64,000 nucleotides of DNA from Flavobacteriaceae bacterium (GCA_047624355.1 JBLHPQ010000003.1:31747-95746); one strand, 5' to 3'. Positions 14,731 to 31,582 are shown, numbered from the stretch's first letter. Program-made: numbers and translations. The notes: generated from the letters alone by a model not told the origin.

Positions 14731-15165
14731 TTTGCTTTGGTTTTATCTTGTAATTTCTTTGTCCTAAACTTAGCTATTCTTTTGCCATTCAACATCAACA
14801 AATCTATATGGTTATCAGACATATACAGCATACCGATGCTCGAGTGGCCAGAATGGTTGAGTAGAACGACAGATTTTCAATCTTGATGACATTAAGACTG
14901 TCGATGATCCATACATCTCTCCCTCCTTTGTTAAGGCAACTCGAGCCTATATCAATCAAGCTTTCATGACAATTTAGCAACTTCTATTTCAGTTTTCTCA
15001 ATTAATTAGTACATTAGTCATTCGGAGAAACATCTCTCCGACAGGTGATCACCCTCACTGGCTCCAACTTTCTGCCAGAAACCGCTTCATTTTTTTTTAT
15101 ATTACAATGAGCTTGCTCGAGGCAATACGAATGTGTTCTTGTCTCGATGCCTAAAACAGTTAGCA

Positions 15166-16632: not shown

Positions 16633-16667
16633 CATTATTTTAAATCACTACTAAGAAGACTATTACT

Positions 16668-18026: not shown

Positions 18027-19753
18027 AAGAGGAAGAAATTATAGCATTAACCGAGGACCTTTCCGGGTCATCACTTTATAGCGATGACCTCGCTCCTGTG
18101 TCTAAAGAAAAGCGCACATGGACAAAGTGGAGTTTGGCCGCCCTTTGGGTTGGAATGGCCGTCTGTATTCCGACCTACCTACTAGCATCTTACATGATGA
18201 AGGAGGGAATGGGTTGGTTAGAATCCCTAATTATCATTGGCGTTGCAAACCTCATTATTACCATTCCTATGGTATTGAATGGCCACGCTGGGGTAAAATA
18301 CGGCGTTCCATTTCCTGTTATTGGCAGATCGTCTTTTGGTACTAAAGGAGTGCACCTAGCATCTGTAACTCGAGGAATTGTGGCCTGTGGTTGGTTTGGA
18401 ATTCAAACATGGATTGGTGGAATGGCGATCTACGAAATTATCTATGCCTTCAGTGAAGGAGCCACACCAACCGAATTAAACTTACTCATGTTTGTCTGTT
18501 TTGGCGTGTTTTGGTTCATGAACATGTACTTCATTTGGAAAGGAACGGACAGTATTAAATGGCTGGAGGAATATTCAGCGCCTATATTAATTCTAATGGG
18601 CGTGGTTCTTATAGGTTGGGGAGCCTATAATTCTGGTGGTTTTGGGGTTGTGCTCGAACAAAGTATTCAGCTTCAAAAAGCAACTGTCGAAGTTTCGGAA
18701 ACCGATGATACATACCTAATTCAACTCAATGGCATTACCGATAAAGACGGTAAAACAAAAGCCAACAGGTACGCGTATCGAACAGTTAATGAGCGTGGTA
18801 CTGAGAATATTGAATACCATGCTTTTCCCGATGATGGAACATTTGAAATCCCAAAACAGGTCGCTGATAATGCAACGGGAAGTGTACAGTTAATCTATAA
18901 AACTGAAACAGAAAATATAGAATCAAGCTGGACGCCAATCGTTCTTGATGCCTCACCATCAGAAGCTCCAAACAAGCTCTGGCAATACATCAAATGGTTA
19001 ACGGTCATGCTCGGTTTCTGGGCGACAATGTCTTTAAGTATTTCGGATATAACACGTTATTCGCCATCACAAAAAGCGCAGAAGCAAGGACAGTTTATTG
19101 GATTACCTGGGACGATGATGTTGTATTCTTTCGTAGCAATTTTTGTAACCTGTGCTTCGGTATTAATCTTTAGTGATGTTCTAATTGCCGCTGATGCCCC
19201 CTGGGATCCAACGGCTCTACTTGGTAAATTCGATAGTCCGTGGGTAGTGATTGTCGCTCAAGTATTTATGATAATAGCCACATTAAGCACCAATATCGCA
19301 GCAAACGTCATCGCGCCATCTAACGCTTTTTCGAATTTATTTCCAAAGAAAATCAGTTTCAAAATGGGCGGGACTATTACAGGAATCTTGGGGATATTAA
19401 TCTGTCCTTGGTGGTTACTCAATGACATCGCCGGAATCTTACTCCTAGTAAGTGGCTTCCTTGGGCCTGTCCTTGGAATTATGCTCTGTGATTATTTTCT
19501 AATTCGAAGGAAACACTTGAAAATTGGAGAATTGTACAAAAGTGAGGGCGAGTATAGCTATACCAAAGGATTCAATCTGAATGCAATGCTTAGTCTTTTC
19601 CTTGGTGTCAGTGCCGCATTAGTATGGTACCTCGTCCCCTCCTTGGCTTACTTGTCTGATCTCGCCTGGTTTACTGGGTTTTTCGTCTCATTTATAGTAT
19701 ATTATCTGCTGATGGCAAAATACCGCCAGCCAAAATCACTAATTCAAAACTAA
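18023..19753 (+). CDS. NCS1-family nucleobase:cation symporter with an extra ~100-aa loop domain
   Basis: 576 aa and polytopic. NCS1-like segments include NGHAGVKYGVPFPVIGRSSFG, GWFGIQTW and SISDITRY. Its start overlaps the upstream stop (ATGA). Confidence 0.85.
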   Translation: MKEEEIIALTEDLSGSSLYSDDLAPVSKEKRTWTKWSLAALWVGMAVCIPTYLLASYMMKEGMGWLESLIIIGVANLIITIPMVLNGHAGVKYGVPFPVIGRSSFGTKGVHLASVTRGIVACGWFGIQTWIGGMAIYEIIYAFSEGATPTELNLLMFVCFGVFWFMNMYFIWKGTDSIKWLEEYSAPILILMGVVLIGWGAYNSGGFGVVLEQSIQLQKATVEVSETDDTYLIQLNGITDKDGKTKANRYAYRTVNERGTENIEYHAFPDDGTFEIPKQVADNATGSVQLIYKTETENIESSWTPIVLDASPSEAPNKLWQYIKWLTVMLGFWATMSLSISDITRYSPSQKAQKQGQFIGLPGTMMLYSFVAIFVTCASVLIFSDVLIAADAPWDPTALLGKFDSPWVVIVAQVFMIIATLSTNIAANVIAPSNAFSNLFPKKISFKMGGTITGILGILICPWWLLNDIAGILLLVSGFLGPVLGIMLCDYFLIRRKHLKIGELYKSEGEYSYTKGFNLNAMLSLFLGVSAALVWYLVPSLAYLSDLAWFTGFFVSFIVYYLLMAKYRQPKSLIQN

Positions 19754-19754
19754 T

Positions 19755-21134
19755 ATGTCTGTACTAATCAAAAACGGTAGGGTTGTCACCGCCTCTGAAG
19801 ATTACATCGCTGATGTCTATGTCGAAGGGGAAAAAATCGTTGCGATTGGACGTGATTTACCCTACAACGCAGATAAAGTAATAGATGCATCCGACAAGTT
19901 GGTTTTTCCGGGAGGAATTGACCCACATGTTCATCTCGATATGCCGTTTATGGGAACGTATTCGAGCGATGATTATGAAACTGGAACAAGGGCCGCCCTA
20001 CATGGTGGAACAACCTCTGTGATCGAATTCATCCTCCAAACGCAAGGCGATACTTTACACAATGCGCTGAAGGAATGGCAAGACAAATCGCTACATAAAG
20101 CCGTAGGAGATTTCTCCTATCACATGGCGGTGACAGACTTCAATGATGATGTTGCCAAGGAAGTTGTGCAGATGATCGAGGAAGAAGGGATTACTTCTTT
20201 CAAAACATTTATGGCCTACAAAGGAGCGCTAATGATCGATGATGGTCAGATGGTTCAATTAATGAAAGTCGTAAAAAAACACGGTGGCTTGGTTACTGTT
20301 CACGCGACAAACGGAGACATGATTGATTCATTGATCAGTAAGAATCTGGCGGAGGGAAATACGAAACCAATCTATCATTATTTATCTCAACCTGAAGTTA
20401 CAGAAGCAGAAGCATCTGGTCGATTTACAGATATGCTGCATTATACGGGTTGCCCAGGATACATCGTTCATATGACGTGTGAAGGAGCGCTCAATGCCGT
20501 TCGCAAAGCAACAATGCGCAACCAAAAAGTATTCGTTGAAACGTGTACTCAATATTTGATGCTAGATGCATCACTCTACGAGAGAGAAGATGGTGCCAAC
20601 TGGGTAATGAGTCCTCCATTACGTGAGAAAAAGGATCAAGAAGTTCTTTGGGCTGGAATTAATCAAGGGTTGGTTCAAGTAGTTGGGACGGATCATTGTC
20701 CATTTACTTTGGAGCAGAAGGCAATGGGAAAAGACAATTTTGCTAAGATTCCCAATGGTCATCCGGCGATCGAGCACCGAATGGAATTTATGTATTCCGA
20801 AGGTGTCAATAAAGGAAAAATTTCATTGAACAAATTCGTTGAAGTCACATCAACAAACGCTTCGAAGATTTTTGGAATGTACCCAACAAAAGGAACCATC
20901 GCGATTGGATCAGATGCAGATTTGGTGATTTTCGACCCGAATAAAGAACACGTGATCTCTGCTGATACGCATCATATGAACTGCGATTACTCTGGTTATG
21001 AAGGATGGAAAGTTACGGGAAAAACGGAAACCGTCTTATTAAGAGGAATGATCGCAATTGAAAACGAAGAGTGCCTTTTGAAACCTGGAGACGGGCAATT
21101 TATTAAGCGGGGGAAGAGCTCGATGGTTATATAA
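19755..21134 (+). CDS. hydA: dihydropyrimidinase (D-hydantoinase)
   Basis: 459 aa. Motifs are GGIDPHVHLDMPF and KTFMAYKG (the carboxylated-Lys region). It has cyclic amidohydrolase length and layout. Confidence 0.9.
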   Translation: MSVLIKNGRVVTASEDYIADVYVEGEKIVAIGRDLPYNADKVIDASDKLVFPGGIDPHVHLDMPFMGTYSSDDYETGTRAALHGGTTSVIEFILQTQGDTLHNALKEWQDKSLHKAVGDFSYHMAVTDFNDDVAKEVVQMIEEEGITSFKTFMAYKGALMIDDGQMVQLMKVVKKHGGLVTVHATNGDMIDSLISKNLAEGNTKPIYHYLSQPEVTEAEASGRFTDMLHYTGCPGYIVHMTCEGALNAVRKATMRNQKVFVETCTQYLMLDASLYEREDGANWVMSPPLREKKDQEVLWAGINQGLVQVVGTDHCPFTLEQKAMGKDNFAKIPNGHPAIEHRMEFMYSEGVNKGKISLNKFVEVTSTNASKIFGMYPTKGTIAIGSDADLVIFDPNKEHVISADTHHMNCDYSGYEGWKVTGKTETVLLRGMIAIENEECLLKPGDGQFIKRGKSSMVI

Positions 21135-21169
21135 ACGGGGCACGTAGCGGACGAAGAAAAAACAAAAGA

Positions 21170-21286
21170 ACGCAGATGACGCAGATAAAAATGATTAACG
21201 CGGACTGTAGATGAAAGAATTGAAGTAGAAGAAATAACCTTAAATGCAGCTATCATTTTGATCATACAAATCAGCGTTATCTGCGT
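21170..21286. repeat. long imperfect inverted repeat / hairpin preceding the GxxExxY gene
   Basis: ACGCAGATGACGCAGAT (21170-21186) pairs with ATCAGCGTTATCTGCGT (21270-21286) over 17 positions, with one mismatch and one G-T pair. AAAATGAT (21188-21195) pairs with ATCATTTT (21252-21259). ACGCAGAT is also directly repeated. Confidence 0.6.
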
Positions 21287-21303
21287 ACAAGAGAAAGAGG
21301 AAC

Positions 21304-21708
21304 ATGAACGATAATAATTACAAGCACGCGGAAATGACTGAGCAGGTCATAAAGGCTTTTTATAAAGTCTACAATGTGCTCGGTTATGGGTTTTTGGAGA
21401 AAGTTTATGAAAATGCACTGTGTATAGAGTTAAAAAAACTAGGGTTTGATGTTGAAAAACAGCAGCCAATCGAAGTGTATTACGAAGACATTATAGTTGG
21501 TAAGTACTATGCTGATCTTATTGTAAATGATATCGTGATACTAGAGTTAAAGGCTGCAAAAAACATCAGCTACGAACACGAGTCTCAACTTGTTAATTAC
21601 CTAAAAGCAACGGATATCGAAGTAGGTCTACTGTTAAACTTTGGAGAATCTCCTCAAGTGAAGCGGAAGGTTTATTCAAATGGACCGCGAATAAACTTAA
21701 TAGATTAA
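21304..21708 (+). CDS. GxxExxY-family protein (PD-(D/E)xK nuclease-like fold)
   Basis: 134 aa with the signature GYGFLEKVYENAL (GxxExxY) and a D...ELK motif (ADLIVNDIVILELK). Confidence 0.85.
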   Translation: MNDNNYKHAEMTEQVIKAFYKVYNVLGYGFLEKVYENALCIELKKLGFDVEKQQPIEVYYEDIIVGKYYADLIVNDIVILELKAAKNISYEHESQLVNYLKATDIEVGLLLNFGESPQVKRKVYSNGPRINLID

Positions 21709-21767
21709 TTAAATCAAATTGAACATGTTGACCACAAAATCAGCATCGTCAATTTTAAAAACAAATT

Positions 21768-22634
21768 ATGGCAAGAATAGTAAAATCAGGATTAATACAA
21801 ATGAGCCTTCCAATGACAGAGGGTGAAGGTACAATACAGGAAATTTGCAGTGCGATGTACGACAAACATATCCCGTATATTGAGGAAGCTGGAAAGCAAG
21901 GTGTTCAAATCTTATGCCTACAAGAGATCTTCAATACTCCCTACTTTTGTCCTGGTCAAGACAACAAATGGTACGCTTCAGCAGAAGCTATTCCTGGACC
22001 AACCACAGACAAACTCGCGGTGATTGCGAAGAAATATGACATGGTGATTATTGCTTCATTGTACGAGCGTGAACAAGCTGGAGTCCTTTACAATACAGCA
22101 GCCGTAATAGATGCTGACGGAACGTACCTTGGAAAATATAGAAAGAACCATATTCCTCACACGAACGGGTTCTGGGAGAAGTACTTTTTCAAACCAGGAA
22201 ACTTGGGCTATCCCGTTTTTCAAACAAAATATGCCAAAATTGGGGTGTACATCTGCTACGATCGTCATTTCCCAGACGGAGCTAGAGCACTTGGTCTTAA
22301 TGGTGCTGAAATTGTCTATAATCCTTCCGCAACCGTTGCTGGATTAAGCGAGTACTTATGGAAATTAGAACAACCGGCGCATGCTGCTGCAAATGGCTAT
22401 TTCATGGGATGTATTAATCGTGTTGGGGAAGAGAAACCTTGGAACCTTGGGAAGTTTTACGGACAATCTTATTTCGTCGATCCTCGAGGGCAAATTTTTT
22501 CTGAAGCTTCTCGTGATAACGATGAATTACTAATTGCTGAGTTTGATTTAGACCTCATCGAAGAAGTGCGTTCAACATGGCAATTCTTTAGAGATCGTCG
22601 ACCTGAAACGTATGGCGATTTGACAAAACTTTAA
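21768..22634 (+). CDS. beta-ureidopropionase (N-carbamoyl-beta-alanine amidohydrolase, nitrilase superfamily)
   Basis: 288 aa. The carbon-nitrogen hydrolase E-K-C triad context is present (CLQEIF, YRKNHIP, GVYICYDRHFP). The pathway context fits. Confidence 0.8.
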   Translation: MARIVKSGLIQMSLPMTEGEGTIQEICSAMYDKHIPYIEEAGKQGVQILCLQEIFNTPYFCPGQDNKWYASAEAIPGPTTDKLAVIAKKYDMVIIASLYEREQAGVLYNTAAVIDADGTYLGKYRKNHIPHTNGFWEKYFFKPGNLGYPVFQTKYAKIGVYICYDRHFPDGARALGLNGAEIVYNPSATVAGLSEYLWKLEQPAHAAANGYFMGCINRVGEEKPWNLGKFYGQSYFVDPRGQIFSEASRDNDELLIAEFDLDLIEEVRSTWQFFRDRRPETYGDLTKL

Positions 22635-22704
22635 TCGAAACACATTAACTCACGAGTGACATCAGCTTGATAACAACACCAAGTTCACTATAAAAACTGA
22701 TCGT

Positions 22705-24033
22705 ATGGCAGAATACAAACGTCCGGCAAATGAGCAGGATTTCAAGGAAAATTTCAAACAGAAAAAACCCTTGATGAACGATACACAGGCACATTATGAA
22801 AGTTCTCGTTGCTTGTTTTGTTACGATGCTCCGTGCATGGATGCATGTCCAACAGGAATAGATATACCGCTTTTTATTAAACAGATTCAGACTGGAAATA
22901 CTGATGGCGCCGCGAAAACCATTTACGACTCAAATTGGATGGGAAATGCATGTGGGACGATCTGTCCAACCGGTGTTTTATGCGAAGGTGCTTGCGTTTA
23001 CAACAACCAAGACGTTGCTCCTCTGCTCATCGGAAGATTGCAAAATTACGCGACACACTCGGTGATCGAATCTGGAAAACAATTGTATTATCCAGGAGAT
23101 GAAAACGGTAAAAAAGTGGCGATAATTGGCGCTGGACCTGCAGGAATAGCCTGTGCTTGTGAACTTCGAACGCTTGGTTATGAAGTTGATATTTACGAGG
23201 CCAAATCACAACCTTCAGGATTAACCGTTCACGGAATAGCTCCTTACAAAATTTCCAATGAAGAGGTGATCGCAGAAATGGACTATTTGCAAAATCAACT
23301 TGGCTATAACATCATTTACAATCACCCGATTTCAACCAAAGATCAACTTTCAGAATTGGAGTCGAACTACTCAGCGATTTTTATCGGCGTTGGACTTGGT
23401 GTCACAGCCTCGCTCAATATGACAGGAGAAAATCTCACAGGTGTTCGTGGGGCCGTTGAGTTTATCGAGGAGTTAAGAATGAATCATTCGGATATTAAAA
23501 TTGCCGATCGAGTTGTCGTTATTGGTGGCGGAAATACGGCAATGGACGCAGCATCTGGATCAGCTAGATTAGGTGCAGAAGAAGTAACGCTTGCCTATAG
23601 AAGAGACAAAAACGGTATGGGTGCTTATGGTTTCGAATACGATTTGGCCATTGGGGCAGGTGTGAATGGATTATTCAATGCCGCTCCGTTAGAAATTATT
23701 GGCAGCGATAAGGTAGAGGGCGTTCGCTTCATTAAAACAGAATTGTCTAATGGAAAACTTACCAATATCGAAGGGTCCGAGTTTACAATCGCCTGTGATA
23801 TGGTCATTAAAGCGACTGGTCAGGCAAAACAAGGGTCATTCTTAAGTTTAATCGAAGGATTGGATGTAGATGATCGTACAAGGATTGTTGTAAACGCAGA
23901 AACCAACCAAACAACGAACGAAATGTATTTCGCTGGTGGTGATGCTATCAATGGAGGTGCCGAAGTTGTTAATGGCGCATACGATGGCAAACTTGCTGCA
24001 AACGGAATTCACGAATGGCTAACGCAAAACTAA
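22705..24033 (+). CDS. preT: NAD-dependent dihydropyrimidine dehydrogenase subunit PreT
   Basis: 442 aa. It has an N-terminal Fe-S Cys cluster (CLFCYDAPCMDACP) and a GltD-like dinucleotide fold (VAIIGAGPAGIACA). Confidence 0.85.
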   Translation: MAEYKRPANEQDFKENFKQKKPLMNDTQAHYESSRCLFCYDAPCMDACPTGIDIPLFIKQIQTGNTDGAAKTIYDSNWMGNACGTICPTGVLCEGACVYNNQDVAPLLIGRLQNYATHSVIESGKQLYYPGDENGKKVAIIGAGPAGIACACELRTLGYEVDIYEAKSQPSGLTVHGIAPYKISNEEVIAEMDYLQNQLGYNIIYNHPISTKDQLSELESNYSAIFIGVGLGVTASLNMTGENLTGVRGAVEFIEELRMNHSDIKIADRVVVIGGGNTAMDAASGSARLGAEEVTLAYRRDKNGMGAYGFEYDLAIGAGVNGLFNAAPLEIIGSDKVEGVRFIKTELSNGKLTNIEGSEFTIACDMVIKATGQAKQGSFLSLIEGLDVDDRTRIVVNAETNQTTNEMYFAGGDAINGGAEVVNGAYDGKLAANGIHEWLTQN

Positions 24034-24037
24034 AGAC

Positions 24038-25408
24038 ATGAGCAAAAAAGATAAAATTGATTTATCCGTAAATTTTGCAGGAATTAAAGCTCCAAATCCC
24101 TTTTGGCTAGCCTCTGCACCACCCACTAATACAGGATATCAAATAATGAAAGCCTTTGATGCTGGCTGGGGCGGAGCGGTATGGAAGACACTGGGAATGC
24201 CAACAATTAACGTATCAAGTCGGTACGGGTCGACGAACTATCGCGATACGCGAATGGCTGGATTCAGTAATATTGAGTTGATCAGTGATCGTCCGCTTGA
24301 AGATAATTTACGCGAGATGGCTGAGGTGAAAAAACACTTCCCTGATCATGCGGTAATTGCCTCTTTAATGGTGGATACTCGCCAAGAGTGGGAAGACATT
24401 ATCAAACAGGTAGAAGATGCAGGCGCTGATGGAATTGAATTAAATTTTGGCTGTCCACATGGTATGTGTGAGCGTGGAATGGGCTCTGCAGTTGGACAAG
24501 AACCAGAGGTCTTAAAAACGATTGTTGAATGGGTTATGGAAGCCGCAAACATCCCTGTGATCACGAAACTTTCCCCAAACATATCACACATTGTAGATCC
24601 GGGATTAGCAGCAGTTCAAGGAAAGACAGATGCGATTTCGCTTATCAATACCGTTAAAAGTATTGTTGGGATTGACCTCGATAGCTATGCTCCCTACCCT
24701 GTTGTTGATGGAAAGGGGACCAATGGTGGATATTGCGGTCCTGCAGTGAAACCAATTGCTTTGCACATGTTGAAAGACTTGATGCAGCATCCAGAAATTA
24801 AAAACACTCCAATTAGTGGAATTGGTGGGATAGAAACGTGGCGAGATGTCGTTGAATTTATTCTACTCGGTGCTACTTCAGTTCAAGTTTGTACTGCTGT
24901 GATGCACTACGGCTTTGGAATTGTACGTGAATTGGAATCTGGGTTGATTAATTTCATGGAGGATAAAGGCTATACGACTATCTACGATTTTGCTGGAAAA
25001 GCACTTCCAAACGTTACAGATTGGAAACATTTGAACTTGAAAAGTGAGGTCAAAGCTAAAATCAACGAAGATAAATGTATCGGCTGTGATTTATGTTATA
25101 TTGCATGTGACGATGGCGCTCACCAAGCAATTGCGCTACCTACAGATGGAAGTCGAATTCCTACAATCATCGAGGAAAACTGCGTCGGATGCAACCTGTG
25201 TTCATTAGTTTGTCCTGTGGAAGATTGCATCACAATGGAGAAGTTTGATGACGGAAAAGAGCACGAAACTTGGCATGAATTAACCGAATCAGACAGAATT
25301 CCGAATACTTGGAATGATGACCGTGCCGGTGGAAAAGGACACTATGTTCCTGAACCTGCTGAAGCGTTAAAAACGAAGCGAAAAGACAAATCTGGTTGGA
25401 AAAAATAA
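24038..25408 (+). CDS. preA: NAD-dependent dihydropyrimidine dehydrogenase subunit PreA
   Basis: 456 aa. A DHODH-like TIM barrel (GIELNFGCPHGM) is followed by two C-terminal 4Fe-4S ferredoxin motifs (CIGCDLCYIAC, CVGCNLCSLVCP). Confidence 0.9.
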   Translation: MSKKDKIDLSVNFAGIKAPNPFWLASAPPTNTGYQIMKAFDAGWGGAVWKTLGMPTINVSSRYGSTNYRDTRMAGFSNIELISDRPLEDNLREMAEVKKHFPDHAVIASLMVDTRQEWEDIIKQVEDAGADGIELNFGCPHGMCERGMGSAVGQEPEVLKTIVEWVMEAANIPVITKLSPNISHIVDPGLAAVQGKTDAISLINTVKSIVGIDLDSYAPYPVVDGKGTNGGYCGPAVKPIALHMLKDLMQHPEIKNTPISGIGGIETWRDVVEFILLGATSVQVCTAVMHYGFGIVRELESGLINFMEDKGYTTIYDFAGKALPNVTDWKHLNLKSEVKAKINEDKCIGCDLCYIACDDGAHQAIALPTDGSRIPTIIEENCVGCNLCSLVCPVEDCITMEKFDDGKEHETWHELTESDRIPNTWNDDRAGGKGHYVPEPAEALKTKRKDKSGWKK

Positions 25409-25413
25409 AAGTA

Positions 25414-25845
25414 ATGGACAAATTCATGCGTATCGCTATTGACGAAGCGAAGAAAGGGCTTTCAGAAGGAGGGATTCCAATTGGATCTGCGTTAGTAAAG
25501 AACGGAAAACTCGTTGCGAGTGGAAGAAATAAACGTGTTCAGGAGCAAAATCCGATTTTACATGGAGAGATGGATTGCATGAATAACGCTGGACGCATTG
25601 GTTCGTACAAAGACACCGTAATGTACTCAACACTGATGCCCTGTTATATGTGCGCGGGGACGATCGTTCAGTTCAAGATTCCAAAAGTAATTGTTGGTGA
25701 GTCTAAGACATTTCCTGGTGCACGAGAATTTATGGAAAGTCATGGGGTCGAAGTCATTGACCTTAATAACACTGAATGTGTTGAAATGATGGAAAGCTTT
25801 ATCAAGGAAAAACCCGAACTTTGGAATGAGGATATTGGGGAGTAG
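25414..25845 (+). CDS. cytosine/nucleoside deaminase (CDA-fold, FCY1-type)
   Basis: It has the zinc-deaminase motifs HGEMDC and PCYMCAG. The start is ambiguous (25396, 25414 or 25426). Confidence 0.8.
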   Translation: MDKFMRIAIDEAKKGLSEGGIPIGSALVKNGKLVASGRNKRVQEQNPILHGEMDCMNNAGRIGSYKDTVMYSTLMPCYMCAGTIVQFKIPKVIVGESKTFPGAREFMESHGVEVIDLNNTECVEMMESFIKEKPELWNEDIGE

Positions 25846-26743: not shown

Positions 26744-27364
26744 CGTTTGTAAGACATAGGTTGAAGAACCGAGAACTTCGAGAGCCTAGTCTTCGGTTAA
26801 GTTTCAGTTTCATAGAGGCTATAAAGGTTGATTGTTATTGGTTTAAACATGGACAGGACAATGAACGGTTCGCACTAGGGGTAGCAGCGGCATCCTTTGA
26901 TAAACGAAGGCTGAGGCTATCGAAGTCTGTCGTTATTAAAGATAAAGCGAATAACCCGACCTCCCGATTGCTCTCGGGATGGAAGTGCCCAAAATCACAT
27001 AAAAACATGCATTTTTCGTAAAAATCAATTGAATTTTACGGTAAATCAACTTTAGAAAGCTTCGTTGGTAATCAATCTTTATTCCAAATCCGTACGGACT
27101 CCGATTTTAAAAAACCCGTTACTTCGAGTGATTTTTCGAAGTAAGTCGATGCTATTACATCGGCTTATGCTCTTTTGCTGCGCAGCGCAATTCCGAACGA
27201 TGACTTGCTATCACTGTCAAAAACTTCAGTGGAATATTGATCGGTTTTGCTCTGAAAACAACGCACAATCAGCGGTGAGTACACCATTATTTGAGTTAAT
27301 CAACTTATTTCGACTATACTTGTTTACATTACAATTTTATCGACATCTATAGTAAAGCGATAGC

Positions 27365-27895
27365 ATGAATATAGCCAACAGCCATACATCTAATATTGAT
27401 GATCTATTAAAGGACTTATATACGAAATGGCCTGATGTTAAACTATTAATGAAAAAGATTGGTTGCTCCAATTCTGACGCGGAAGATCTATTCCAAGAAG
27501 CACTTCTCATTTTTATGCGTAAGATGGAAGATCCTACTTTTGAGCTTACAGTAGCACCTTTTCATTATGTGAAAAACACATGTAAGTTGCTTTGGTACAA
27601 TCAAGCACGAAAGGAGAAGAAACTACCTAAGTCAGATTTGCCAGAGGAAGTCGCTCAGCAAGACGACGACTGGTTCCAAAATGAACTTCTTCTACAAAAG
27701 GTCGAAAAAGCGATTTCAGAAATTGGTCAGAAATGTCAAGATCTATTGAAGCTGTTTTATGGATTAGGTCAGAGTATGGTTGATATTGCAAAAAAGCTCG
27801 GTTTTCGAAATGACAATGTTGCCAAGGCACAGAAATATCGCTGTATTAATAAAGTGAAGGACATCCTCCGTTCACAAGAATCTCACTCCATTTAA
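27365..27895 (+). CDS. ECF-type sigma-70 family RNA polymerase sigma factor
   Basis: 176 aa. Region 2-like sequence is DAEDLFQEALLIFMRKM. The region 4 HTH is MVDIAKKLGFRNDNVAKAQKYRCINKV. Confidence 0.8.
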   Translation: MNIANSHTSNIDDLLKDLYTKWPDVKLLMKKIGCSNSDAEDLFQEALLIFMRKMEDPTFELTVAPFHYVKNTCKLLWYNQARKEKKLPKSDLPEEVAQQDDDWFQNELLLQKVEKAISEIGQKCQDLLKLFYGLGQSMVDIAKKLGFRNDNVAKAQKYRCINKVKDILRSQESHSI

Positions 27896-27905
27896 TCCAG
27901 ACGAC

Positions 27906-30272
27906 ATGAACGAGCAAATCACAAAAATTATAGAGCAATACCTATCTAACGAGCTTTCTGCTGAAGATAAAAAGGCATTCGAAAGTCGACTAAAAACGAA
28001 TCCTAAATTACAAACCGAACTTGCTCTGCAAAAGAAGGTTCATGCAGGAGCAAAACGAGCTTCTCAGCGCGTCAAAGTTCAAAAACTTAAGAAAGGTTAC
28101 CACACAAAGAAGTTTCTAAAAAAGGGCGCTATTGTTACACTAATAGCTGCAGCAATTGCTCTAACTGTTTATCTAATCGCGAGTGGAATAACGCCAATCA
28201 CAACTGAACTAAAGGAAAGAATGGACCAAGAAGCGCAGGTCGAGAACCTTGATATTCAATATTTTCAAATTGCCAAAGAAGGAGGTGTTGTACTATCAGC
28301 AGAAGGTGTATTAATCTCTATCCCGAAGAATGCTTTTCTAAAAGATGGAAAGCCATTTACTGGAAAGACCATCCTACAATTTCAAGAAGCAATGGACGCT
28401 TCTGATATCCTCAAAAGTGGATTAAACACAATGTCTGGTGATCGTTTGCTGGAGACACAAGGAATGTTTGGGGTCACTGGTTTTACCGAAGAAGGTGAAG
28501 CTCTTGAACTGAATCCTAAAATAGGCGTTTATGTGCAAGTTCCCGTAGATGATTACAAAGAAGGAATGCAACTCTTTGATGGCGTGAAGGATGCGAATGG
28601 TACTATCGATTGGCAAACCCCTGTTCCTCTGGCAAAAATTCCTGTTACTACTGATATGAGCGAGCTCAATTTCTATCCATCAGAATACGAGCCTTATTTG
28701 GATCGAAAGAAATGGAAAAAAGACAAACCCTCGCGAGATAGTTTGTACTTGAGCTTTGAAGATTGGGGAAGAAGCGAGGTTGCAAGTGAAAGTGAATATA
28801 TTGATGGCGAAGGTTTATTTTGGAGCAAATGTGCTACATGCCATAATATAGATAGAAACGGAACTGGACCAAAATTAAGACATGTGCGCTCTAAGTGGGA
28901 AGAATACAGCACCGTCGAAGGATCCATTTATCAATGGGTTCGTAACTGGATAACAGCAGTAAAAAATGATCCCTACGCAGAGGAAATAGCAAGGCTCAAA
29001 CCAACTGCTTCTGATAATTTTCCGGAACTAAGTAACGCCCAAATTGATGCTATCTTTAATTATATAGACGACAGTCCTGATGCTTCTGAAGCGCTCACCT
29101 CACTTGGTGGCTCCGAACTTGATTCGACTTCGTACTATGATGAAACCTATTATGAAATTGGGCCAAATGCCAATTCAGCAGGAGCAGGAGAGGCTGCGTA
29201 CAATGACTTTGTAAGCCCATCAAAAGTTCTCGGCTTCTGGAAGGATAAATTTAACGAAACCAACCTATCCACACGCGCCTTTGAAAACAGAATGCGCGCT
29301 ATTCATGAAACATGCTCAGATGCAGTACTTGAAAAATATACAGGACAACTTACCAAATCGCTCTCCGCGATTGATAAGCAAGTGGTAGCAATGGGACATC
29401 CTCAATTCCAGCGTTTCGCAGATGAAAACTTAGCAGCCGTTAACCCAAACAATCCACACTTGAAAAACCTACAGACTTTCTATGAGAAAAGCATTTCGCA
29501 ACTCAAGGATAAGGGTCGACGAACACAGAGAAAAGAGCAAAATAAAGAAGAAAAATGGGACAAAAGTGTTGCCAAATCGCGTGATTTAGAAACCAAACGG
29601 AGTGATTACAGAGAGACTCAGGCATTGAAAGAAGAGTACGAGTTCAACATGGCCAGTGTTGAGAAACAAATTGGGCCATCTGTAGGCTTTACCCTATCCC
29701 ATGGAGGTGGAACGGTCGTAAATATTGATGCCTACGTCATGGAAGCAACAATTGCCCGTAAATCTGCGACCATCACAGATCCATTTACAGGAAAAACCGC
29801 TGAGATTGTCTACAATGACTTCAATTTTGAAGTGCCAAACGCAGACAAGTACATTAAGCTCTTTGCTTACGTCTTTCCACACGAATTAAACAGTTATCAA
29901 CGTATCGAAGGAGATCAGGGCAAATTTGATTATCCGCTAAATAATGAAATCATCTACGATATTGCGGTTGTGGGTATCACTGAGGATGGATATGAGTATT
30001 ATCAAAAGCAGAGCTTTAAAAGTGGCGAGCTTGGAGCCATTACGATGAGGCGTGTTTCCGAGGAGAAGCTTGAAGCATCCATTGAACAGTTAAATGGAAA
30101 AAGGATTTCAAAACCCGTGCGAATTAAAGAGGAAGTCAAATGGCTGATGCAAGAACGGAAAGATTATCAGGAACAGAAGAAACGGAAGGATATGAATAGG
30201 TTTAGACGTGAGATCGCCCAATCGCTATTTCCATGTCTTAGAGGTATTGAAAGGTATTACAGTTATAAATAA
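27906..30272 (+). CDS. membrane anti-sigma-like protein with a periplasmic c-type cytochrome domain
   Basis: 788 aa, starting 10 nt after the sigma gene. The short N-terminal cytoplasmic segment (YLSNELSAEDKKAFESRL) is followed by one TM helix (AIVTLIAAAIALTVYLIA). The CxxCH site CATCH is encoded at 28830-28844. Confidence 0.6.
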   Translation: MNEQITKIIEQYLSNELSAEDKKAFESRLKTNPKLQTELALQKKVHAGAKRASQRVKVQKLKKGYHTKKFLKKGAIVTLIAAAIALTVYLIASGITPITTELKERMDQEAQVENLDIQYFQIAKEGGVVLSAEGVLISIPKNAFLKDGKPFTGKTILQFQEAMDASDILKSGLNTMSGDRLLETQGMFGVTGFTEEGEALELNPKIGVYVQVPVDDYKEGMQLFDGVKDANGTIDWQTPVPLAKIPVTTDMSELNFYPSEYEPYLDRKKWKKDKPSRDSLYLSFEDWGRSEVASESEYIDGEGLFWSKCATCHNIDRNGTGPKLRHVRSKWEEYSTVEGSIYQWVRNWITAVKNDPYAEEIARLKPTASDNFPELSNAQIDAIFNYIDDSPDASEALTSLGGSELDSTSYYDETYYEIGPNANSAGAGEAAYNDFVSPSKVLGFWKDKFNETNLSTRAFENRMRAIHETCSDAVLEKYTGQLTKSLSAIDKQVVAMGHPQFQRFADENLAAVNPNNPHLKNLQTFYEKSISQLKDKGRRTQRKEQNKEEKWDKSVAKSRDLETKRSDYRETQALKEEYEFNMASVEKQIGPSVGFTLSHGGGTVVNIDAYVMEATIARKSATITDPFTGKTAEIVYNDFNFEVPNADKYIKLFAYVFPHELNSYQRIEGDQGKFDYPLNNEIIYDIAVVGITEDGYEYYQKQSFKSGELGAITMRRVSEEKLEASIEQLNGKRISKPVRIKEEVKWLMQERKDYQEQKKRKDMNRFRREIAQSLFPCLRGIERYYSYK

Positions 30273-30454: not shown

Positions 30455-31582
30455 ATGAAAAAGTTTTACAGTCTTCCAGGCCTTGTTCTTTCGCTGGTGT
30501 TTTTAATCGGATCGTTTGTCCTTATTGATAAATCAGTTGAAGCATCGCATGAATTTAAAGATGAGAAGAATAAAATCTCGGAGATTCTAAACTTCAATGA
30601 TCGCTTGTTGTCCCTGAGAGATTGGGTCTTTAGTGAGTCTGCATGGCAAGAGCGAAAAGTGAAATACGACGCTGTTCTCCTGAAATCTGAGGAGCATTAT
30701 CAGCAAGCAGTAACTTATGGTAATTACATCCTCTTTGCTGCATTGGGGTTCTTCGCTTTGATGCTGGTTCTTTATGCTAAAAAACGCATTTATTTCGGGG
30801 CGACGCTCGGCTTAGCCGTCATTGCAATCGTAATGCTTGTGCAAGGAATAATGAACCCCGTTCTGGAAATGGGCGCATTTGAAGAAGACATGACTTTTCA
30901 AATGTATGTCAAGCCGAGCGACATCCCATATTACGGAGAAGCAATTGAGAAAATTGAAGACTGGGGAGGACTTGCAGACCACATTGAAATCATTCCGTTC
31001 TTTGGAGAATCACTGGCGAGCGCCGCCGGATCTGGAGTTGATGAGCTCACAGATTACATGAAAGATAATGCCGACGAACCTTTTGGTACAGAAGTAGTCT
31101 TCAAAGGGAGAACGTATTTCTATTATCAAAATAAAGGGATCATGGACGTGATTTCTCTGCTCTGGAACAACAATAACAAACCTGTCGCCATGGCCATCGG
31201 GACGTTTAGTGTCATTGTTCCGCTAATAAAATTATTGTTCACCTTGTTTATTTTGCTCTTTCCAGTTACAAACGCAAAACGACTTAGGAAATTCTTGAGT
31301 TTCATCGCTAAATGGAGTATGGCGGATGTATTTGTCGTTTCCCTATTCTTGGCCTACCTGAGTTTTGCGAATATGAGTCCTGGTGTTCAAATGGAATCAA
31401 ATGCGCTGTATGGATTGTACTTCTTTGGAGGCTACGTGCTCATCTCGGTTATTTTGGGAATGATGCTAAACTTGAGTATGAAGGAGAAAGTTAAAATCAT
31501 GGAGGAAGAAGAAGCTTTGGCGCTTGTGCCGATCACTCCAGATGATGATTCATCTGAGCAATTACTGGATCAGGGCGAGTAA
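30455..31582 (+). CDS. PqiA-family (paraquat-inducible protein A-like) integral membrane protein
   Basis: 375 aa and polytopic. The PqiA-like segment is FSVIVPLIKLLFTLFILLF....AKWSMADVFVVSLFLAYL. Confidence 0.65.
   Translation: MKKFYSLPGLVLSLVFLIGSFVLIDKSVEASHEFKDEKNKISEILNFNDRLLSLRDWVFSESAWQERKVKYDAVLLKSEEHYQQAVTYGNYILFAALGFFALMLVLYAKKRIYFGATLGLAVIAIVMLVQGIMNPVLEMGAFEEDMTFQMYVKPSDIPYYGEAIEKIEDWGGLADHIEIIPFFGESLASAAGSGVDELTDYMKDNADEPFGTEVVFKGRTYFYYQNKGIMDVISLLWNNNNKPVAMAIGTFSVIVPLIKLLFTLFILLFPVTNAKRLRKFLSFIAKWSMADVFVVSLFLAYLSFANMSPGVQMESNALYGLYFFGGYVLISVILGMMLNLSMKEKVKIMEEEEALALVPITPDDDSSEQLLDQGE

What the first reader, a model, noticed from the sequence alone, without database searches (positions are those of the whole stretch)
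27365..30272. ECF sigma factor paired with a giant anti-sigma-like membrane protein whose haem-c domain lacks the axial methionine
Seen in sequence:
- The sigma gene stops at 27895 and the next ATG is at 27906, which suggests co-transcription.
- The 788-aa product has a short cytoplasmic N-terminus of the kind found in sigma partners (YLSNELSAEDKKAFESRL), one TM helix, and then about 690 extracytoplasmic residues.
- Nucleotides 28830-28844 encode CATCH (CxxCH). It sits in a roughly 90-aa stretch that looks like a class-I/cbb3-type cytochrome c fold (GEGLFWSKCATCHNIDRNGTGPKL ... FPELSNAQIDAIFNYI).
- No Met occurs anywhere between the CxxCH and the end of that stretch.
- Where related domains, as I recall them, carry the axial Met just before the F-P, this protein has SDNFP.

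Inference: a covalently bound haem with an open or non-Met sixth ligand on an anti-sigma ectodomain is better suited to ligand or redox sensing (O2, NO, H2O2, sulfide) than to electron transfer.

The protein is not FecR-like. It has no HxxxCxxC zinc anti-sigma motif. The remaining roughly 500 ectodomain residues, including a charged coiled-coil-like stretch (KDKGRRTQRKEQNKEEKWDK), match nothing I recognise.
Basis: partly seen in the sequence, partly recalled or inferred. Interest (0 to 1): 0.7.

Follow-up and report, generated by a model that had tools for sequence, protein, structure and literature searches.

The report
Sigma/anti-sigma pair with haem sensor cassette
A small sigma-factor gene is followed by its membrane-bound partner, whose outer part carries a haem-binding cytochrome c domain that has lost its usual methionine ligand; relatives show this domain is one of several swappable redox-type cassettes, so it is a plausible but untested redox or gas sensor.

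Summary
The ORFs, the 10-nt gap, CATCH at 28830-28844 and the lack of any Met in the domain are all there, and Pfam Cytochrom_C scores above its cut-off.

The pairing is strongly supported. A homologue of this ECF-type sigma lies immediately upstream in 75 of 75 informative loci. A conserved promoter-like motif (TGTTTACC-N14-ACAT) sits 44 nt before the sigma ATG.

The protein belongs to an uncharacterised family, mostly from Crocinitomicaceae: 720 clusters at 50% identity. It has a zinc-less anti-sigma-like N-terminus, one TM helix, and two conserved periplasmic domains with no Pfam or PDB match. These flank a variable cassette site.

Across 288 relatives, the cassette holds a cytochrome c domain in 113. 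Others have nothing, a DsbD_N-like domain or TonB_C.

The column aligned with Ser369 is Met in 69% of haem-bearing relatives and in the solved F. johnsoniae ActA domain. Met is the inferred ancestral state. Ser, His and Gln arose repeatedly while CxxCH is always kept.

So the "unusual ligation" is a lineage-specific switch on a normally His/Met haem, not a family trait. A sensing role is plausible but untested. I class it as a new variant of a known kind, of moderate interest.

The parts
27321..27347 (+). Promoter-like motif TGTTTACATTACAATTTTATCGACATC. It has a -35-like TGTTTAC and a -10-like ACATC, and starts 44 nt before the sigma ATG.
   Evidence: The same motif (GTTTACC-N14-ACAT) sits at a fixed distance, about -44, in 48 of 61 upstream regions of homologous sigma genes. 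It occurs once per locus and only there; L016 has two copies and also two gene pairs. It is the only match in the 64-kb window, but one such match is expected by chance in 31 of 100 shuffles. The case therefore rests on the cross-locus conservation.
27365..27895 (+). ECF-type (group IV) sigma-70 factor, 176 aa
   Evidence: It scores 50 bits on TIGR02937 sigma70-ECF (cut-off 42.9), covering aa 22-166. No NCBIfam subfamily model comes near its cut-off. Pfam Sigma70_r2 scores 21.6 bits, below its gathering score of 24.
27906..30272 (+). Single-pass membrane protein of 788 aa, the putative anti-sigma factor (coordinates include the stop codon)
   Evidence: The AF2 model has pLDDT 82.3.
27906..28085 (+). 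Cytoplasmic N-terminal helices (aa 1-60): an anti-sigma-domain-like segment without zinc ligands
   Evidence: The family consensus is MNPxxTKIIEQYLxxELSxEDKxAFExRLxxNxxLQxEV. Helices are predicted at aa 3-13, 19-31 and 33 onward. Only weak sequence hits exist: NF052375 'anti-sigma factor' at E 0.015, zf-HC2 at E 0.0014-0.0022 in a few members, and RsrA at E 0.3.
28125..28193 (+). Transmembrane helix, about aa 74-96
   Evidence: This is the only strongly hydrophobic 19-residue window (Kyte-Doolittle 2.39, starting at aa 74). A Lys/Arg-rich segment precedes it.
28233..28790 (+). Conserved N-proximal periplasmic domain (aa about 110-295): a beta domain (aa 117-241) plus helices, ending in RDSLYLSFE
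   Evidence: It has many invariant columns and pLDDT of about 85-94. None of 60 members hits a Pfam family here.
28800..29090 (+). Mono-haem class I-type cytochrome c domain (aa about 299-395), sitting in the variable cassette site
   Evidence: PF00034 scores 34.1 bits against a gathering score of 21.3. It aligns with 6btm_A residues 54-141 at E 8.4e-10. Low-confidence linkers flank it at aa 292-298 and 400-430.
28830..28844 (+). CATCH haem-attachment motif (Cys309, Cys312, His313)
   Evidence: CxxCH is present in 88 of 88 cassette-bearing relatives.
29010..29012 (+). Ser369 codon (TCT), at the column that holds the presumed axial Met in relatives
29211..30245 (+). Conserved C-terminal periplasmic domain (aa 436-780): a helical bundle, a 70-residue helix, a beta-sandwich and terminal helices
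   Evidence: It has 57 invariant columns among 13 sequences. The domain-only model has pLDDT 85.7. No PDB match reaches E<=0.001. A profile search finds 720 clusters, nearly always at the C-terminal end of proteins of about 700-950 aa.
29313..29315 (+). Cys470, one of a nearly invariant Cys pair
   Evidence: It is Cys in 173 of 177 relatives.
30234..30236 (+). Cys777, the other member of the nearly invariant Cys pair
   Evidence: It is Cys in 175 of 177 relatives.

Best explanation
This is a self-contained, probably autoregulated, two-gene ECF sigma / anti-sigma module.

Proposed architecture:
- The 788-aa protein holds the sigma factor through its cytoplasmic N-terminal helices. These resemble a zinc-less class I anti-sigma domain.
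- It crosses the inner membrane once and exposes about 690 residues to the periplasm.
- The periplasmic part has two family-specific conserved domains. They flank a flexible cassette site, which here carries a covalently haem-binding class I-type cytochrome c domain.

The haem domain:
- The ancestral haem in the family is ordinary His/Met.
- In this lineage the Met has become Ser. The haem should then be five-coordinate, water-ligated or otherwise weakly ligated, with a shifted potential.

Proposed mechanism (inferred, not shown):
- The redox or ligation state of the cassette changes the conformation or protease sensitivity of the ectodomain.
- The anti-sigma factor is then inactivated and the sigma factor is released.
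- The sigma factor transcribes its own operon from the TGTTTAC-N15-ACATC promoter, plus an unknown regulon.

Status of each step:
- Shown: gene order and its conservation, the domain architecture, the intact haem motif, the missing Met, and the variability of the cassette.
- Inferred: sigma binding, haem attachment, the sensing role and autoregulation.
For: Pairing:
- A homologous sigma gene lies immediately upstream on the same strand in 75 of 75 informative loci.
- The gap between the two genes is most often 3 nt, and 68 of 72 lie between -41 and +18.
- No third gene is conserved nearby: 15 or fewer of 81 loci share any other neighbour.

Promoter:
- The motif is conserved in sequence and in position, and is unique to the sigma upstream region.

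Topology:
- There is one TM helix with a positively charged stretch on its N-terminal side.
- This places the CxxCH motif in the periplasm, where c-type haem is attached.
- The window also encodes a di-haem cytochrome c peroxidase, consistent with the organism maturing c-type cytochromes.

Haem domain:
- The Pfam score is above the gathering score.
- It is homologous to the solved ActA haem domain.
- CxxCH is kept in 88 of 88 relatives that carry the domain.
- Met-less domains score almost as well as Met domains against a Met-domain HMM with the axial column removed. The Ser group has a median of 129.5 bits, this protein 128.2 and the Met group 138.6. The domain is therefore not decaying.

Axial column:
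- The counts are Met 78, His 14, Ser 13 and Gln 5 of 113.
- Parsimony puts Met at the root, with at least 6 changes involving Ser and at least 5 involving His.
- Neither Ser nor His is one nucleotide step from ATG (genetic code). Repeated replacement looks selected, as expected if a set-point is being tuned.

Cassette site:
- In relatives the same site holds a DsbD_N-like domain. It is found in 35 of 177 members, and 17 of these carry a C-x5-C pair. Pfam PF11412 matches 10 of 19 members tested, with a best E of 1.9e-6.
- Other relatives have TonB_C there, or nothing.
- Paralogues within one genome differ in their cassette.
- This pattern is typical of input modules on a common signalling chassis.
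Against: - Sigma binding by the N-terminus is not shown. Sequence matches to anti-sigma models are weak (E 0.0014 to 0.3).
- The cassette is absent from half or more of the family. The chassis therefore works without it, and the haem may be accessory.
- Most haem-bearing relatives have a standard His/Met site. That fits electron transfer as well as it fits sensing.
- In this protein only one sequence carries Ser, with no close relatives: the next hit is 57% identical and has Met. Selection on Ser369 itself cannot be assessed.
- Another residue or a partner protein could supply the sixth ligand.
- No regulon member was found. The motif occurs only once in the window, and that single match is within chance expectation.
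Confidence: 0.55

Rival explanations
1. The sigma/anti-sigma module is real, but the haem cassette is functionally neutral here. The domain is dispensable in the family, and Met-to-Ser marks the start of its decay. Signalling would run through the two conserved periplasmic domains only.
For: The cassette is absent in 89 of 177 close relatives and 86 of 111 more distant representatives. On the tree its presence and absence are interleaved, which implies many losses or gains. The conserved N- and C-terminal ectodomains are far better conserved than the cassette.
Against: CxxCH and the rest of the domain are intact. The domain scores 128 bits against the Met-domain HMM, where the Met group median is 139. 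Ser and His recur independently at this one column, although each needs two or three nucleotide changes. The Ser state persists across a diverged clade with different architectures (P0042 at 772 aa, P0050 at 931 aa).
Confidence: 0.2
2. The haem domain is an electron-transfer module, not a sensor. The ectodomain would be a periplasmic redox protein, for example passing electrons to or from the conserved Cys pair or a partner. The N-terminal anchor would merely couple its abundance to the sigma factor.
For: His/Met is the ancestral and majority state. The closest solved homologue is a respiratory ACIII haem domain. In paralogues, DsbD_N-like domains with C-x5-C pairs sit at the same site and sometimes in tandem with the haem. 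Cys470 and Cys777 are nearly invariant.
Against: No redox-enzyme domain or partner gene is conserved nearby. Half the family has no redox cassette at all. Strict linkage to an ECF sigma gene, together with an anti-sigma-like topology, points to signalling. This protein lacks the Met that electron carriers of this class normally keep.
Confidence: 0.15
3. The haem is six-coordinate after all. Another side chain would take the place of Met. Candidates are His326, Lys366, Asp370 or Asn371, or a residue from a neighbouring domain or a second subunit. The site would then be a variant low-spin haem rather than an open one.
For: In 14 of 113 relatives the same column is His, a standard ligand. Ser-type and His-type members often have Asp or Asn two residues on (seen by eye, no statistics). 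From my own knowledge, class I-like cytochromes with Asn or Lys ligation exist, for example the Sphaeroides haem protein and alkaline cytochrome c.
Against: His326 is not conserved among the other Ser-type members, which have N or A there. No coordinates were available to measure distances in the model.
Confidence: 0.25
4. The 788-aa protein is not an anti-sigma factor. It would be the main co-transcribed target of the sigma factor, with the true regulator elsewhere or absent.
For: No anti-sigma model reaches significance.
Against: Adjacency holds in 75 of 75 loci, with gaps that suggest translational coupling. The N-terminal 60 residues are among the best conserved parts, although they lie in the cytoplasm. 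The YLxxELSxxDxxxFExRL pattern is in register with the class I anti-sigma motif. The N-in single-pass topology also fits.
Confidence: 0.08

Closest known systems
Canonical ECF sigma / single-pass class I anti-sigma pairs (RseA, RsiW, RslA, ChrR, RsrA types)
   Same: A small sigma-2/sigma-4 protein is followed by a co-transcribed partner. The partner has an N-terminal cytoplasmic helical segment, one TM helix and an extracytoplasmic part. A conserved motif upstream of the operon suggests autoregulation.
   Different: There are no zinc ligands. Only weak sequence similarity to any anti-sigma model was found. The ectodomain is about 690 aa and consists of two domains with no Pfam or PDB relatives, plus a swappable cassette.
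Mono-haem class I-type cytochrome c domains. The closest solved one is residues 54-141 of Flavobacterium johnsoniae alternative complex III subunit ActA (6btm_A).
   Same: CxxCH, the GTGPxL turn, the FPxLS...ID.I..Y C-terminal helix and the overall length all match. E is 8.4e-10.
   Different: The Met of 6btm_A (KAVMTSFPQLS) aligns with Ser369. The domain is an insert in a signalling protein rather than part of a respiratory complex.
Periplasmic c-type haem sensor domains: the Geobacter GSU0582/GSU0935 PAS-like chemoreceptor domains (PMC3460858) and haem-containing Cache domains (preprint PMC12889525)
   Same: A covalently bound haem c on the periplasmic input side of a transmembrane signalling protein. 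Variable distal ligation is linked to NO or redox sensing.
   Different: Those domains have PAS-like or Cache folds and feed chemoreceptors, kinases or cyclases. This one is predicted to have a complete class I cytochrome c fold and sits on an anti-sigma-type protein.
[quoted passage not shown]
   Same: A lineage-specific family of large, unconventional anti-sigma factors in the phylum Bacteroidota. Members have an N-terminal sigma-binding part, one TM helix and several paralogues per genome.
   Different: Dma proteins end in an eight-stranded outer-membrane beta-barrel after a disordered linker. This family has folded helical and beta-sandwich domains, and no barrel was predicted or matched.
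FecR-type anti-sigma factors of cell-surface signalling
   Same: A single-pass anti-sigma factor with a large periplasmic part. Some relatives of this family carry a TonB_C domain, which hints at contact with outer-membrane receptors.
   Different: No member has a FecR domain (PF04773) and no TonB-dependent receptor gene is linked.

Membership tests
ECF (group IV) sigma-70 factors | Only sigma-2 and sigma-4 regions, about 170-200 aa, matching the ECF superfamily model | tested here: met
   TIGR02937 scores 50 bits (cut-off 42.9) over aa 22-166 of 176. Pfam Sigma70_r2 is just below its gathering score, at 21.6 against 24.
ECF (group IV) sigma-70 factors | Assignment to a described ECF subgroup | tested here: not met
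   All NCBIfam subfamily and equivalog models score far below their cut-offs. The best is TIGR02989, with 32 bits against a cut-off of 124.6. The ECF Hub group models were not available.
ECF (group IV) sigma-70 factors | Autoregulated promoter upstream of the sigma operon | tested here: inconclusive
   A motif conserved in sequence and position is found in 48 of 61 loci and occurs only there. Dependence on the sigma factor was not tested.
Class I anti-sigma factors (anti-sigma domain) | N-terminal helical anti-sigma domain recognisable by sequence or profile | tested here: inconclusive
   NF052375 at E 0.015. zf-HC2 at E 0.0014-0.0022 in 3 members only. A family N-terminal profile against the PDB gives RsrA at E 0.3. 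Helices are predicted at aa 3-13, 19-31 and 33 onward.
Class I anti-sigma factors (anti-sigma domain) | Encoded next to, and co-transcribed with, its sigma factor | tested here: met
   75 of 75 loci. The gap is most often 3 nt, and is 10 nt in the window.
Class I anti-sigma factors (anti-sigma domain) | Physical binding of the sigma factor | not testable with these tools
   No complex prediction or experiment was possible.
Zinc-binding anti-sigma factors (ZAS) | HxxxCxxC zinc motif | tested here: not met
   By eye the aligned positions are R28, N32 and L35. The protein has no Cys before residue 309.
Class I c-type cytochromes (Pfam PF00034) | CxxCH motif and a profile match above the curated threshold | tested here: met
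   CATCH at aa 309-313. PF00034 scores 34.1 bits against a gathering score of 21.3. 6btm_A matches at E 8.4e-10.
Class I c-type cytochromes (Pfam PF00034) | Axial Met as sixth ligand before the C-terminal helix | tested here: not met
   Ser369 occupies the column that is Met in 78 of 113 relatives and in 6btm_A. There is no Met anywhere in aa 252-462.
Class I c-type cytochromes (Pfam PF00034) | Covalent haem attachment in an extracytoplasmic compartment | not testable with these tools
   The topology places the domain in the periplasm. Attachment itself needs a haem stain or mass spectrometry.
FecR-like anti-sigma factors | FecR periplasmic domain (PF04773) and a linked TonB-dependent receptor | tested here: not met
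   No such Pfam hit was found in the protein or in 60 relatives. No conserved neighbouring gene was found.
[quoted passage not shown] | C-terminal eight-stranded outer-membrane beta-barrel after a disordered linker (PMC10927553) | tested here: not met
   The predicted C-terminal part is a helical bundle, a long helix, a beta-sandwich and terminal helices. There is no OMP barrel Pfam hit.
Haem-c PAS-like / Cache sensor domains | PAS or Cache fold carrying the CxxCH motif | tested here: not met
   The domain matches cytochrome c families only. The best structural match is the cytochrome c domain 2l4d.

The most novel reading that the evidence does not exclude
The Met-less cytochrome c cassette is a true small-ligand or oxidant sensor (NO, O2, CO, H2O2 or sulfide) that directly gates an ECF sigma factor. 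This would be the first haem-c-based anti-sigma factor. Across the family, repeated switching of the axial ligand (Met, His, Ser, Gln) and swapping of redox cassettes (cytochrome c, DsbD_N-like dithiol) would retune what each paralogue senses in the periplasm.
Probability: 0.22. Interest if true: 0.75.

Novelty: new variant of a known kind. Interest (0 to 1): 0.55.

Why it matters
ECF sigma/anti-sigma pairs are the third major mode of bacterial signalling, yet the input signal is unknown for most of them.

This family gives a concrete, testable handle. A covalent haem is easy to detect and to probe by spectroscopy. It sits on the sensing side of an anti-sigma-type protein. Natural variants at the axial-ligand column (Met, His, Ser, Gln) and natural cassette swaps form a ready-made mutational series.

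If the haem does gate the sigma factor, haem-c sensing would extend from chemoreceptors and kinases to ECF signalling. It would also give a periplasmic redox or gas input for Flavobacteriales, where such regulation is poorly known.

Two conserved periplasmic domains have no Pfam or PDB relative, so they are candidates for new domain families.

If the haem turns out to be accessory, the finding is just one more uncharacterised ECF pair.

Tried and rejected
1. Structure search. Foldseek against the PDB found nothing with E<=0.001, either for the full-length model or for the C-terminal domain model. Beyond the cytochrome c domain there were only weak beta-sandwich hits (CBM20, cholesterol-dependent cytolysin domain 4). 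I did not take these as evidence of carbohydrate binding.

2. Sequence profiles of the whole family against the PDB and Pfam hit only the cytochrome c region.

3. An N-terminal family profile against the PDB, meant to prove an anti-sigma domain, gave RsrA only at E 0.3. That is inconclusive.

4. A profile of the DsbD_N-like cassette against the PDB found no nDsbD structure. That assignment rests on Pfam alone (10 of 19 members, best E 1.9e-6).

5. Search for regulon members. The promoter motif occurs once in the window and once per related locus, so no targets were identified. A whole-genome scan was not possible.

6. Conserved neighbours were searched for and none was found. The PqiA-like gene downstream and the pyrimidine-catabolism genes upstream are not linked in relatives.

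7. The generic sigma-70 promoter and terminator scan gave counts at or below chance. Rfam and tRNA scans of the window were empty.

8. Eight apparent 'cytochrome c without CxxCH' hits among distant representatives were spurious alignments to other regions and were discarded.

9. Literature searches found no described anti-sigma factor with a cytochrome c domain. The library is open-access only, and the supplement of the ECF classification paper was not held.

10. I could not confirm from a paper that the aligned Met of 6btm_A is the haem ligand. That step rests on general knowledge of class I cytochromes and on the Met/His pattern in the family.

11. The parsimony counts come from a quick NJ tree built on a fast alignment and are rough. 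This applies especially to the 45 presence/absence changes.


Full report
**Observation.**
- The sigma ORF (27365-27895, 176 aa) is followed after 10 nt by a 788-aa ORF (27906-30272).
- The sigma protein passes the NCBIfam ECF superfamily model: TIGR02937, 50 bits against a cut-off of 42.9. No subfamily model comes close.
- Nucleotides 28830-28844 encode CATCH.
- Pfam Cytochrom_C (PF00034) matches aa 300-388 with 34.1 bits, above its gathering score of 21.3.
- No Met lies between residues 251 and 463. The only His in the domain other than the CxxCH His is H326.
- The residue in KPTASDNFPE is Ser369, codon TCT at 29010-29012. It differs from ATG at all three positions, so it is not a single-base error.
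- The identical protein is recorded on four contigs from NCBI, JGI and Logan.
- There is a single strongly hydrophobic segment, at about aa 74-96, preceded by a Lys/Arg-rich stretch. This gives an N-in topology with about 690 periplasmic residues.

**What family it belongs to.**
- The protein has hundreds of relatives, nearly all from Crocinitomicaceae: Fluviicola, Taishania and unnamed MAGs. Annotations read 'hypothetical protein', 'cytochrome c' or 'c-type cytochrome'.
- A scan of one genome per species found 223 encoding loci.
- A profile of the C-terminal domain found 720 clusters at 50% identity (315 with E<=1e-30). The domain nearly always sits at the C-terminal end of proteins of about 700-950 aa.
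- Alignment shows four parts:
  - a very well conserved cytoplasmic N-terminus (MNPxxTKIIEQYLxxELSxEDKxAFExRLxxNxxLQxEV);
  - a TM helix;
  - a conserved periplasmic domain that ends in RDSLYLSFE;
  - a second conserved domain that starts at PSKVLAFW and runs to the C-terminus.
- Between the two motifs lies a region that varies in length and content.
- AlphaFold2 models are confident. The full-length model has pLDDT 82.3 and the C-terminal domain alone 85.7.
  - The N-terminal periplasmic domain is a beta domain plus helices.
  - The cytochrome domain is held between low-confidence linkers (aa 292-298 and 400-430).
- Neither conserved domain matches any Pfam family in any of 60 members.
- Neither matches any PDB structure at E<=0.001.

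**Is it a sigma/anti-sigma pair?**
- I took every locus where the N-terminus of the large protein and at least 600 nt upstream were available.
- In all of them a homologue of the window's sigma factor lies immediately upstream on the same strand: 75 of 75.
- The distance from the sigma stop to the start of the large gene is most often 3 nt. It lies between -41 and +18 in 68 of 72 loci.
- No other neighbouring gene is shared by more than 15 of 81 loci. The pair is a self-contained module.
- Upstream of the sigma gene there is a motif conserved in both sequence and position. GTTTACC-N14-ACAT starts about 44 nt before the ATG in 48 of 61 non-identical upstream regions.
- The motif occurs once per 14-kb locus, always at that place. 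The exception is L016, which has two copies and two tandem gene pairs.
- The window copy is TGTTTACATTACAATTTTATCGACATC at 27321-27347. It is the only match in 64 kb.
- I read this as the ECF-dependent autoregulatory promoter. That is an inference.
- Direct sequence evidence that the N-terminus is an anti-sigma domain is weak:
  - NF052375 at E 0.015;
  - zf-HC2 at E 0.0014-0.0022 in three members;
  - RsrA at E 0.3 with a family profile.
- By eye, the segment FESRLKTNPKLQTE is in register with the hExHLxxCxxCxxE motif, with the zinc ligands replaced by R, N and L.
- Taken together, synteny, coupling, topology and the high conservation of a cytoplasmic 60-residue head make the anti-sigma reading very likely. 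Binding remains unproven.

**The haem domain and the missing Met.**
- I aligned the domains from all relatives that have CxxCH. The consensus is ...KPTAMxxFPELxxxEIDAIFDYID.
- Among 177 distinct close relatives, 89 have no cytochrome domain at all. In the other 88, the column aligned with Ser369 is Met 57, Ser 12, His 11, Gln 5, Val 2 and Thr 1.
- Among 111 further, more distant full-length representatives, 25 have the domain: Met 21, His 3 and Ser 1.
- The window's domain aligns to residues 54-141 of the solved Flavobacterium johnsoniae ACIII subunit ActA at E 8.4e-10. Ser369 falls opposite the Met of KAVMTSFPQLS.
- I could not confirm from a paper that this Met ligates the haem. Three things make it the axial-ligand column: its position just before the C-terminal helix, the Met majority, and the fact that the commonest alternative is His.
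- Deep-branching members at 27-29% identity have the domain with Met. Parsimony on a tree of the conserved core puts Met at the root.
- The closest relative of the window protein, P0002 (57% identity), has Met.
- The Met-less state is therefore a derived, lineage-specific substitution on an ordinary His/Met haem. It is not a property of the family.

**The domain is not decaying.**
- CxxCH is retained in all 88 domains.
- I built an HMM from the Met-type domains with the axial column removed. Ser-type domains score a median of 129.5 bits and the window's domain 128.2, against 138.6 for the Met type.
- Changes to Ser are needed at least 6 times and to His at least 5 times on the tree. These are rough counts from a quick NJ tree.
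- Neither Ser nor His is one nucleotide step from ATG (genetic code).
- The Ser state persists across a diverged clade that includes different architectures (P0042 at 772 aa, P0050 at 931 aa).
- Repeated replacement at this one column on an otherwise conserved domain looks like tuning of haem ligation or potential rather than loss of function.

**The cassette site.** The same site between RDSLYLSFE and PSKVLAFW carries other modules in relatives.
- A beta domain is found in 35 of 177 members, and 17 of these have a C-x5-C pair followed by a Pro-rich turn (most often PP).
- Ten of 19 such domains match Pfam DsbD_N (best E 1.9e-6). No PDB nDsbD structure was recovered, so the assignment is moderate.
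- This domain can stand alone or in tandem with the cytochrome domain, in either order.
- Other members have a TonB_C domain at the site (E 5e-19 in L065) or at the C-terminus. Others carry a module marked by ERDYLYGDN, or almost nothing.
- Paralogues in one genome differ in their cassettes:
  - CP170456.1 has a cytochrome c version (L027) and a DsbD_N-like version (L080).
  - CP121319.1 has a cassette-less version (L046) and a DsbD_N-like version (L058).
- A conserved chassis with swappable periplasmic modules, two of them redox-type, is the pattern expected of input domains. It is the best indirect support for a sensing role.
- The conserved C-terminal domain also carries a nearly invariant Cys pair: Cys470 in 173 of 177 members and Cys777 in 175 of 177.

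**Most likely mechanism.**
- The pair works like a canonical ECF system. The anti-sigma-like head sequesters the sigma factor at the membrane.
- A periplasmic event alters the ectodomain and leads to inactivation of the anti-sigma factor. By analogy with other single-pass anti-sigma factors, this is probably regulated proteolysis.
- The released sigma factor then drives its own promoter and an unknown regulon.
- In this protein the periplasmic input most likely includes the redox or ligation state of the haem.
- With Ser in place of Met, the haem is expected to be weakly ligated or open. It could then bind small ligands or react with oxidants.
- Shown here: architecture, linkage, an intact haem motif, loss of Met and modularity of the cassette.
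- Inferred: sigma binding, haem attachment, the sensing role, proteolysis and autoregulation.
- Rivals:
  - the cassette is accessory or neutral here, since half the family lacks it;
  - it is an electron-transfer module;
  - another residue supplies the sixth ligand;
  - least likely, the large protein is a target of the sigma factor rather than its regulator.

**Comparison with what is known.**
- It works like a class I single-pass anti-sigma system. It cannot be filed as ZAS (no zinc motif), FecR-like (no FecR domain, no linked receptor) or Dma (no outer-membrane barrel; PMC10927553).
- The haem domain is a member of the class I cytochrome c superfamily by profile. It fails the axial-Met feature.
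- Known periplasmic haem-c sensors use PAS-like or Cache folds and feed chemoreceptors, kinases or cyclases (PMC3460858, PMC12889525). This one is a complete cytochrome c fold on an anti-sigma-type protein.
- I found no paper describing an anti-sigma factor with a cytochrome c domain. The library is limited to open-access text, and the ECF Hub group tables could not be consulted.

**Context in the window.** The flanking genes are not conserved next to homologues and appear unrelated.
- Upstream lies a probable reductive pyrimidine-catabolism cluster. It contains an aldehyde dehydrogenase, an aminotransferase, a cytosine/uracil permease and an amidohydrolase. PreT/PreA-like and deaminase ORFs were recognised by eye.
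- An SH3-domain protein also lies upstream.
- Downstream are a PqiA-like membrane protein and an S51 peptidase with a type IX secretion tail.
- A di-haem cytochrome c peroxidase at 986-1984 is consistent with the organism maturing c-type cytochromes.

**Verdict.**
- The sigma/anti-sigma reading is well supported.
- The 'haem without Met' is real but is a derived variant within a family whose default is His/Met and in which the haem cassette is optional.
- The sensing hypothesis is reasonable, directly testable and unproven.
- It is a new variant of a known kind of system. It sits in an uncharacterised protein family with two apparently new periplasmic domains.
- Interest is moderate (0.55).

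Noticed in passing
window 29313-29315 and 30234-30236: Cys470 and Cys777 of the 788-aa protein are kept in 173 of 177 and 175 of 177 family members. They are the only Cys residues outside the haem motif. They probably form a periplasmic disulfide, structural or redox-active, in the conserved C-terminal domain.
   Followed up: partly
L016, L022, L042, L048, L054, L057, L063 and L076, and proteins P0035, P0107 and P0117 (cassette site, about aa 320-540 of each protein): Many relatives carry a DsbD_N-like beta domain at the same site as the cytochrome c domain, sometimes in tandem with it. It is present in 35 of 177 members, and 17 of these have a C-x5-C pair followed by a Pro-rich turn (most often PP). 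Pfam PF11412 matches 10 of 19 members tested (best E 1.9e-6). No PDB nDsbD hit was found.
   Followed up: partly
L065 (protein aa 349-428); L081 and the upstream pair of L016 (C-terminal 80 aa): A TonB_C domain (PF03544, E 5e-19 and 6e-12) is found in some relatives, either at the cassette site or at the C-terminus. L065 also ends in a CHU_C type IX secretion domain.
   Followed up: no
L016 1804-5382 and 5405-8358; CP170456.1 (L027, L080); CP121319.1 (L046, L058): Several genomes hold two or more paralogous sigma/anti-sigma pairs with different cassettes. L016 has two pairs in tandem, each with its own copy of the promoter motif.
   Followed up: partly
upstream regions of the sigma genes in L001-L083 (about -44 to -17 from the ATG): The -35-like TGTTTACC is nearly universal. 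The -10-like element splits by clade into GACATCT and AACACAAC. This may insulate paralogous sigma factors from each other.
   Followed up: no
window 15133-25845: Probable reductive pyrimidine-catabolism cluster. It contains an aldehyde dehydrogenase, a class III aminotransferase, a cytosine/uracil permease and an amidohydrolase (all by Pfam). PreT/PreA-like dihydropyrimidine dehydrogenase ORFs and a deaminase ORF were recognised by eye only. The cluster is not linked to the sigma pair in relatives.
   Followed up: partly
window 986-1984: Di-haem cytochrome c peroxidase (CCP_MauG, E 1e-42) with two CxxCH motifs. It is the only other CxxCH-bearing long ORF in the window.
   Followed up: no
window 26744-27364: About 620 nt between the SH3-domain gene and the sigma gene has no convincing ORF, Rfam family or tRNA. 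Only the last 44 nt are explained, by the promoter-like motif.
   Followed up: partly
window 30455-31582: The gene downstream of the pair encodes a 375-aa membrane protein. Only its C-terminal part matches PqiA (PF04403, E 1e-17), as a single copy of the repeat found in PqiA. It is not conserved next to homologues of the pair.
   Followed up: no
window 7029-9410: A 793-aa protein combines DUF5723, thrombospondin type 3 repeats and a C-terminal OmpA domain.
   Followed up: no
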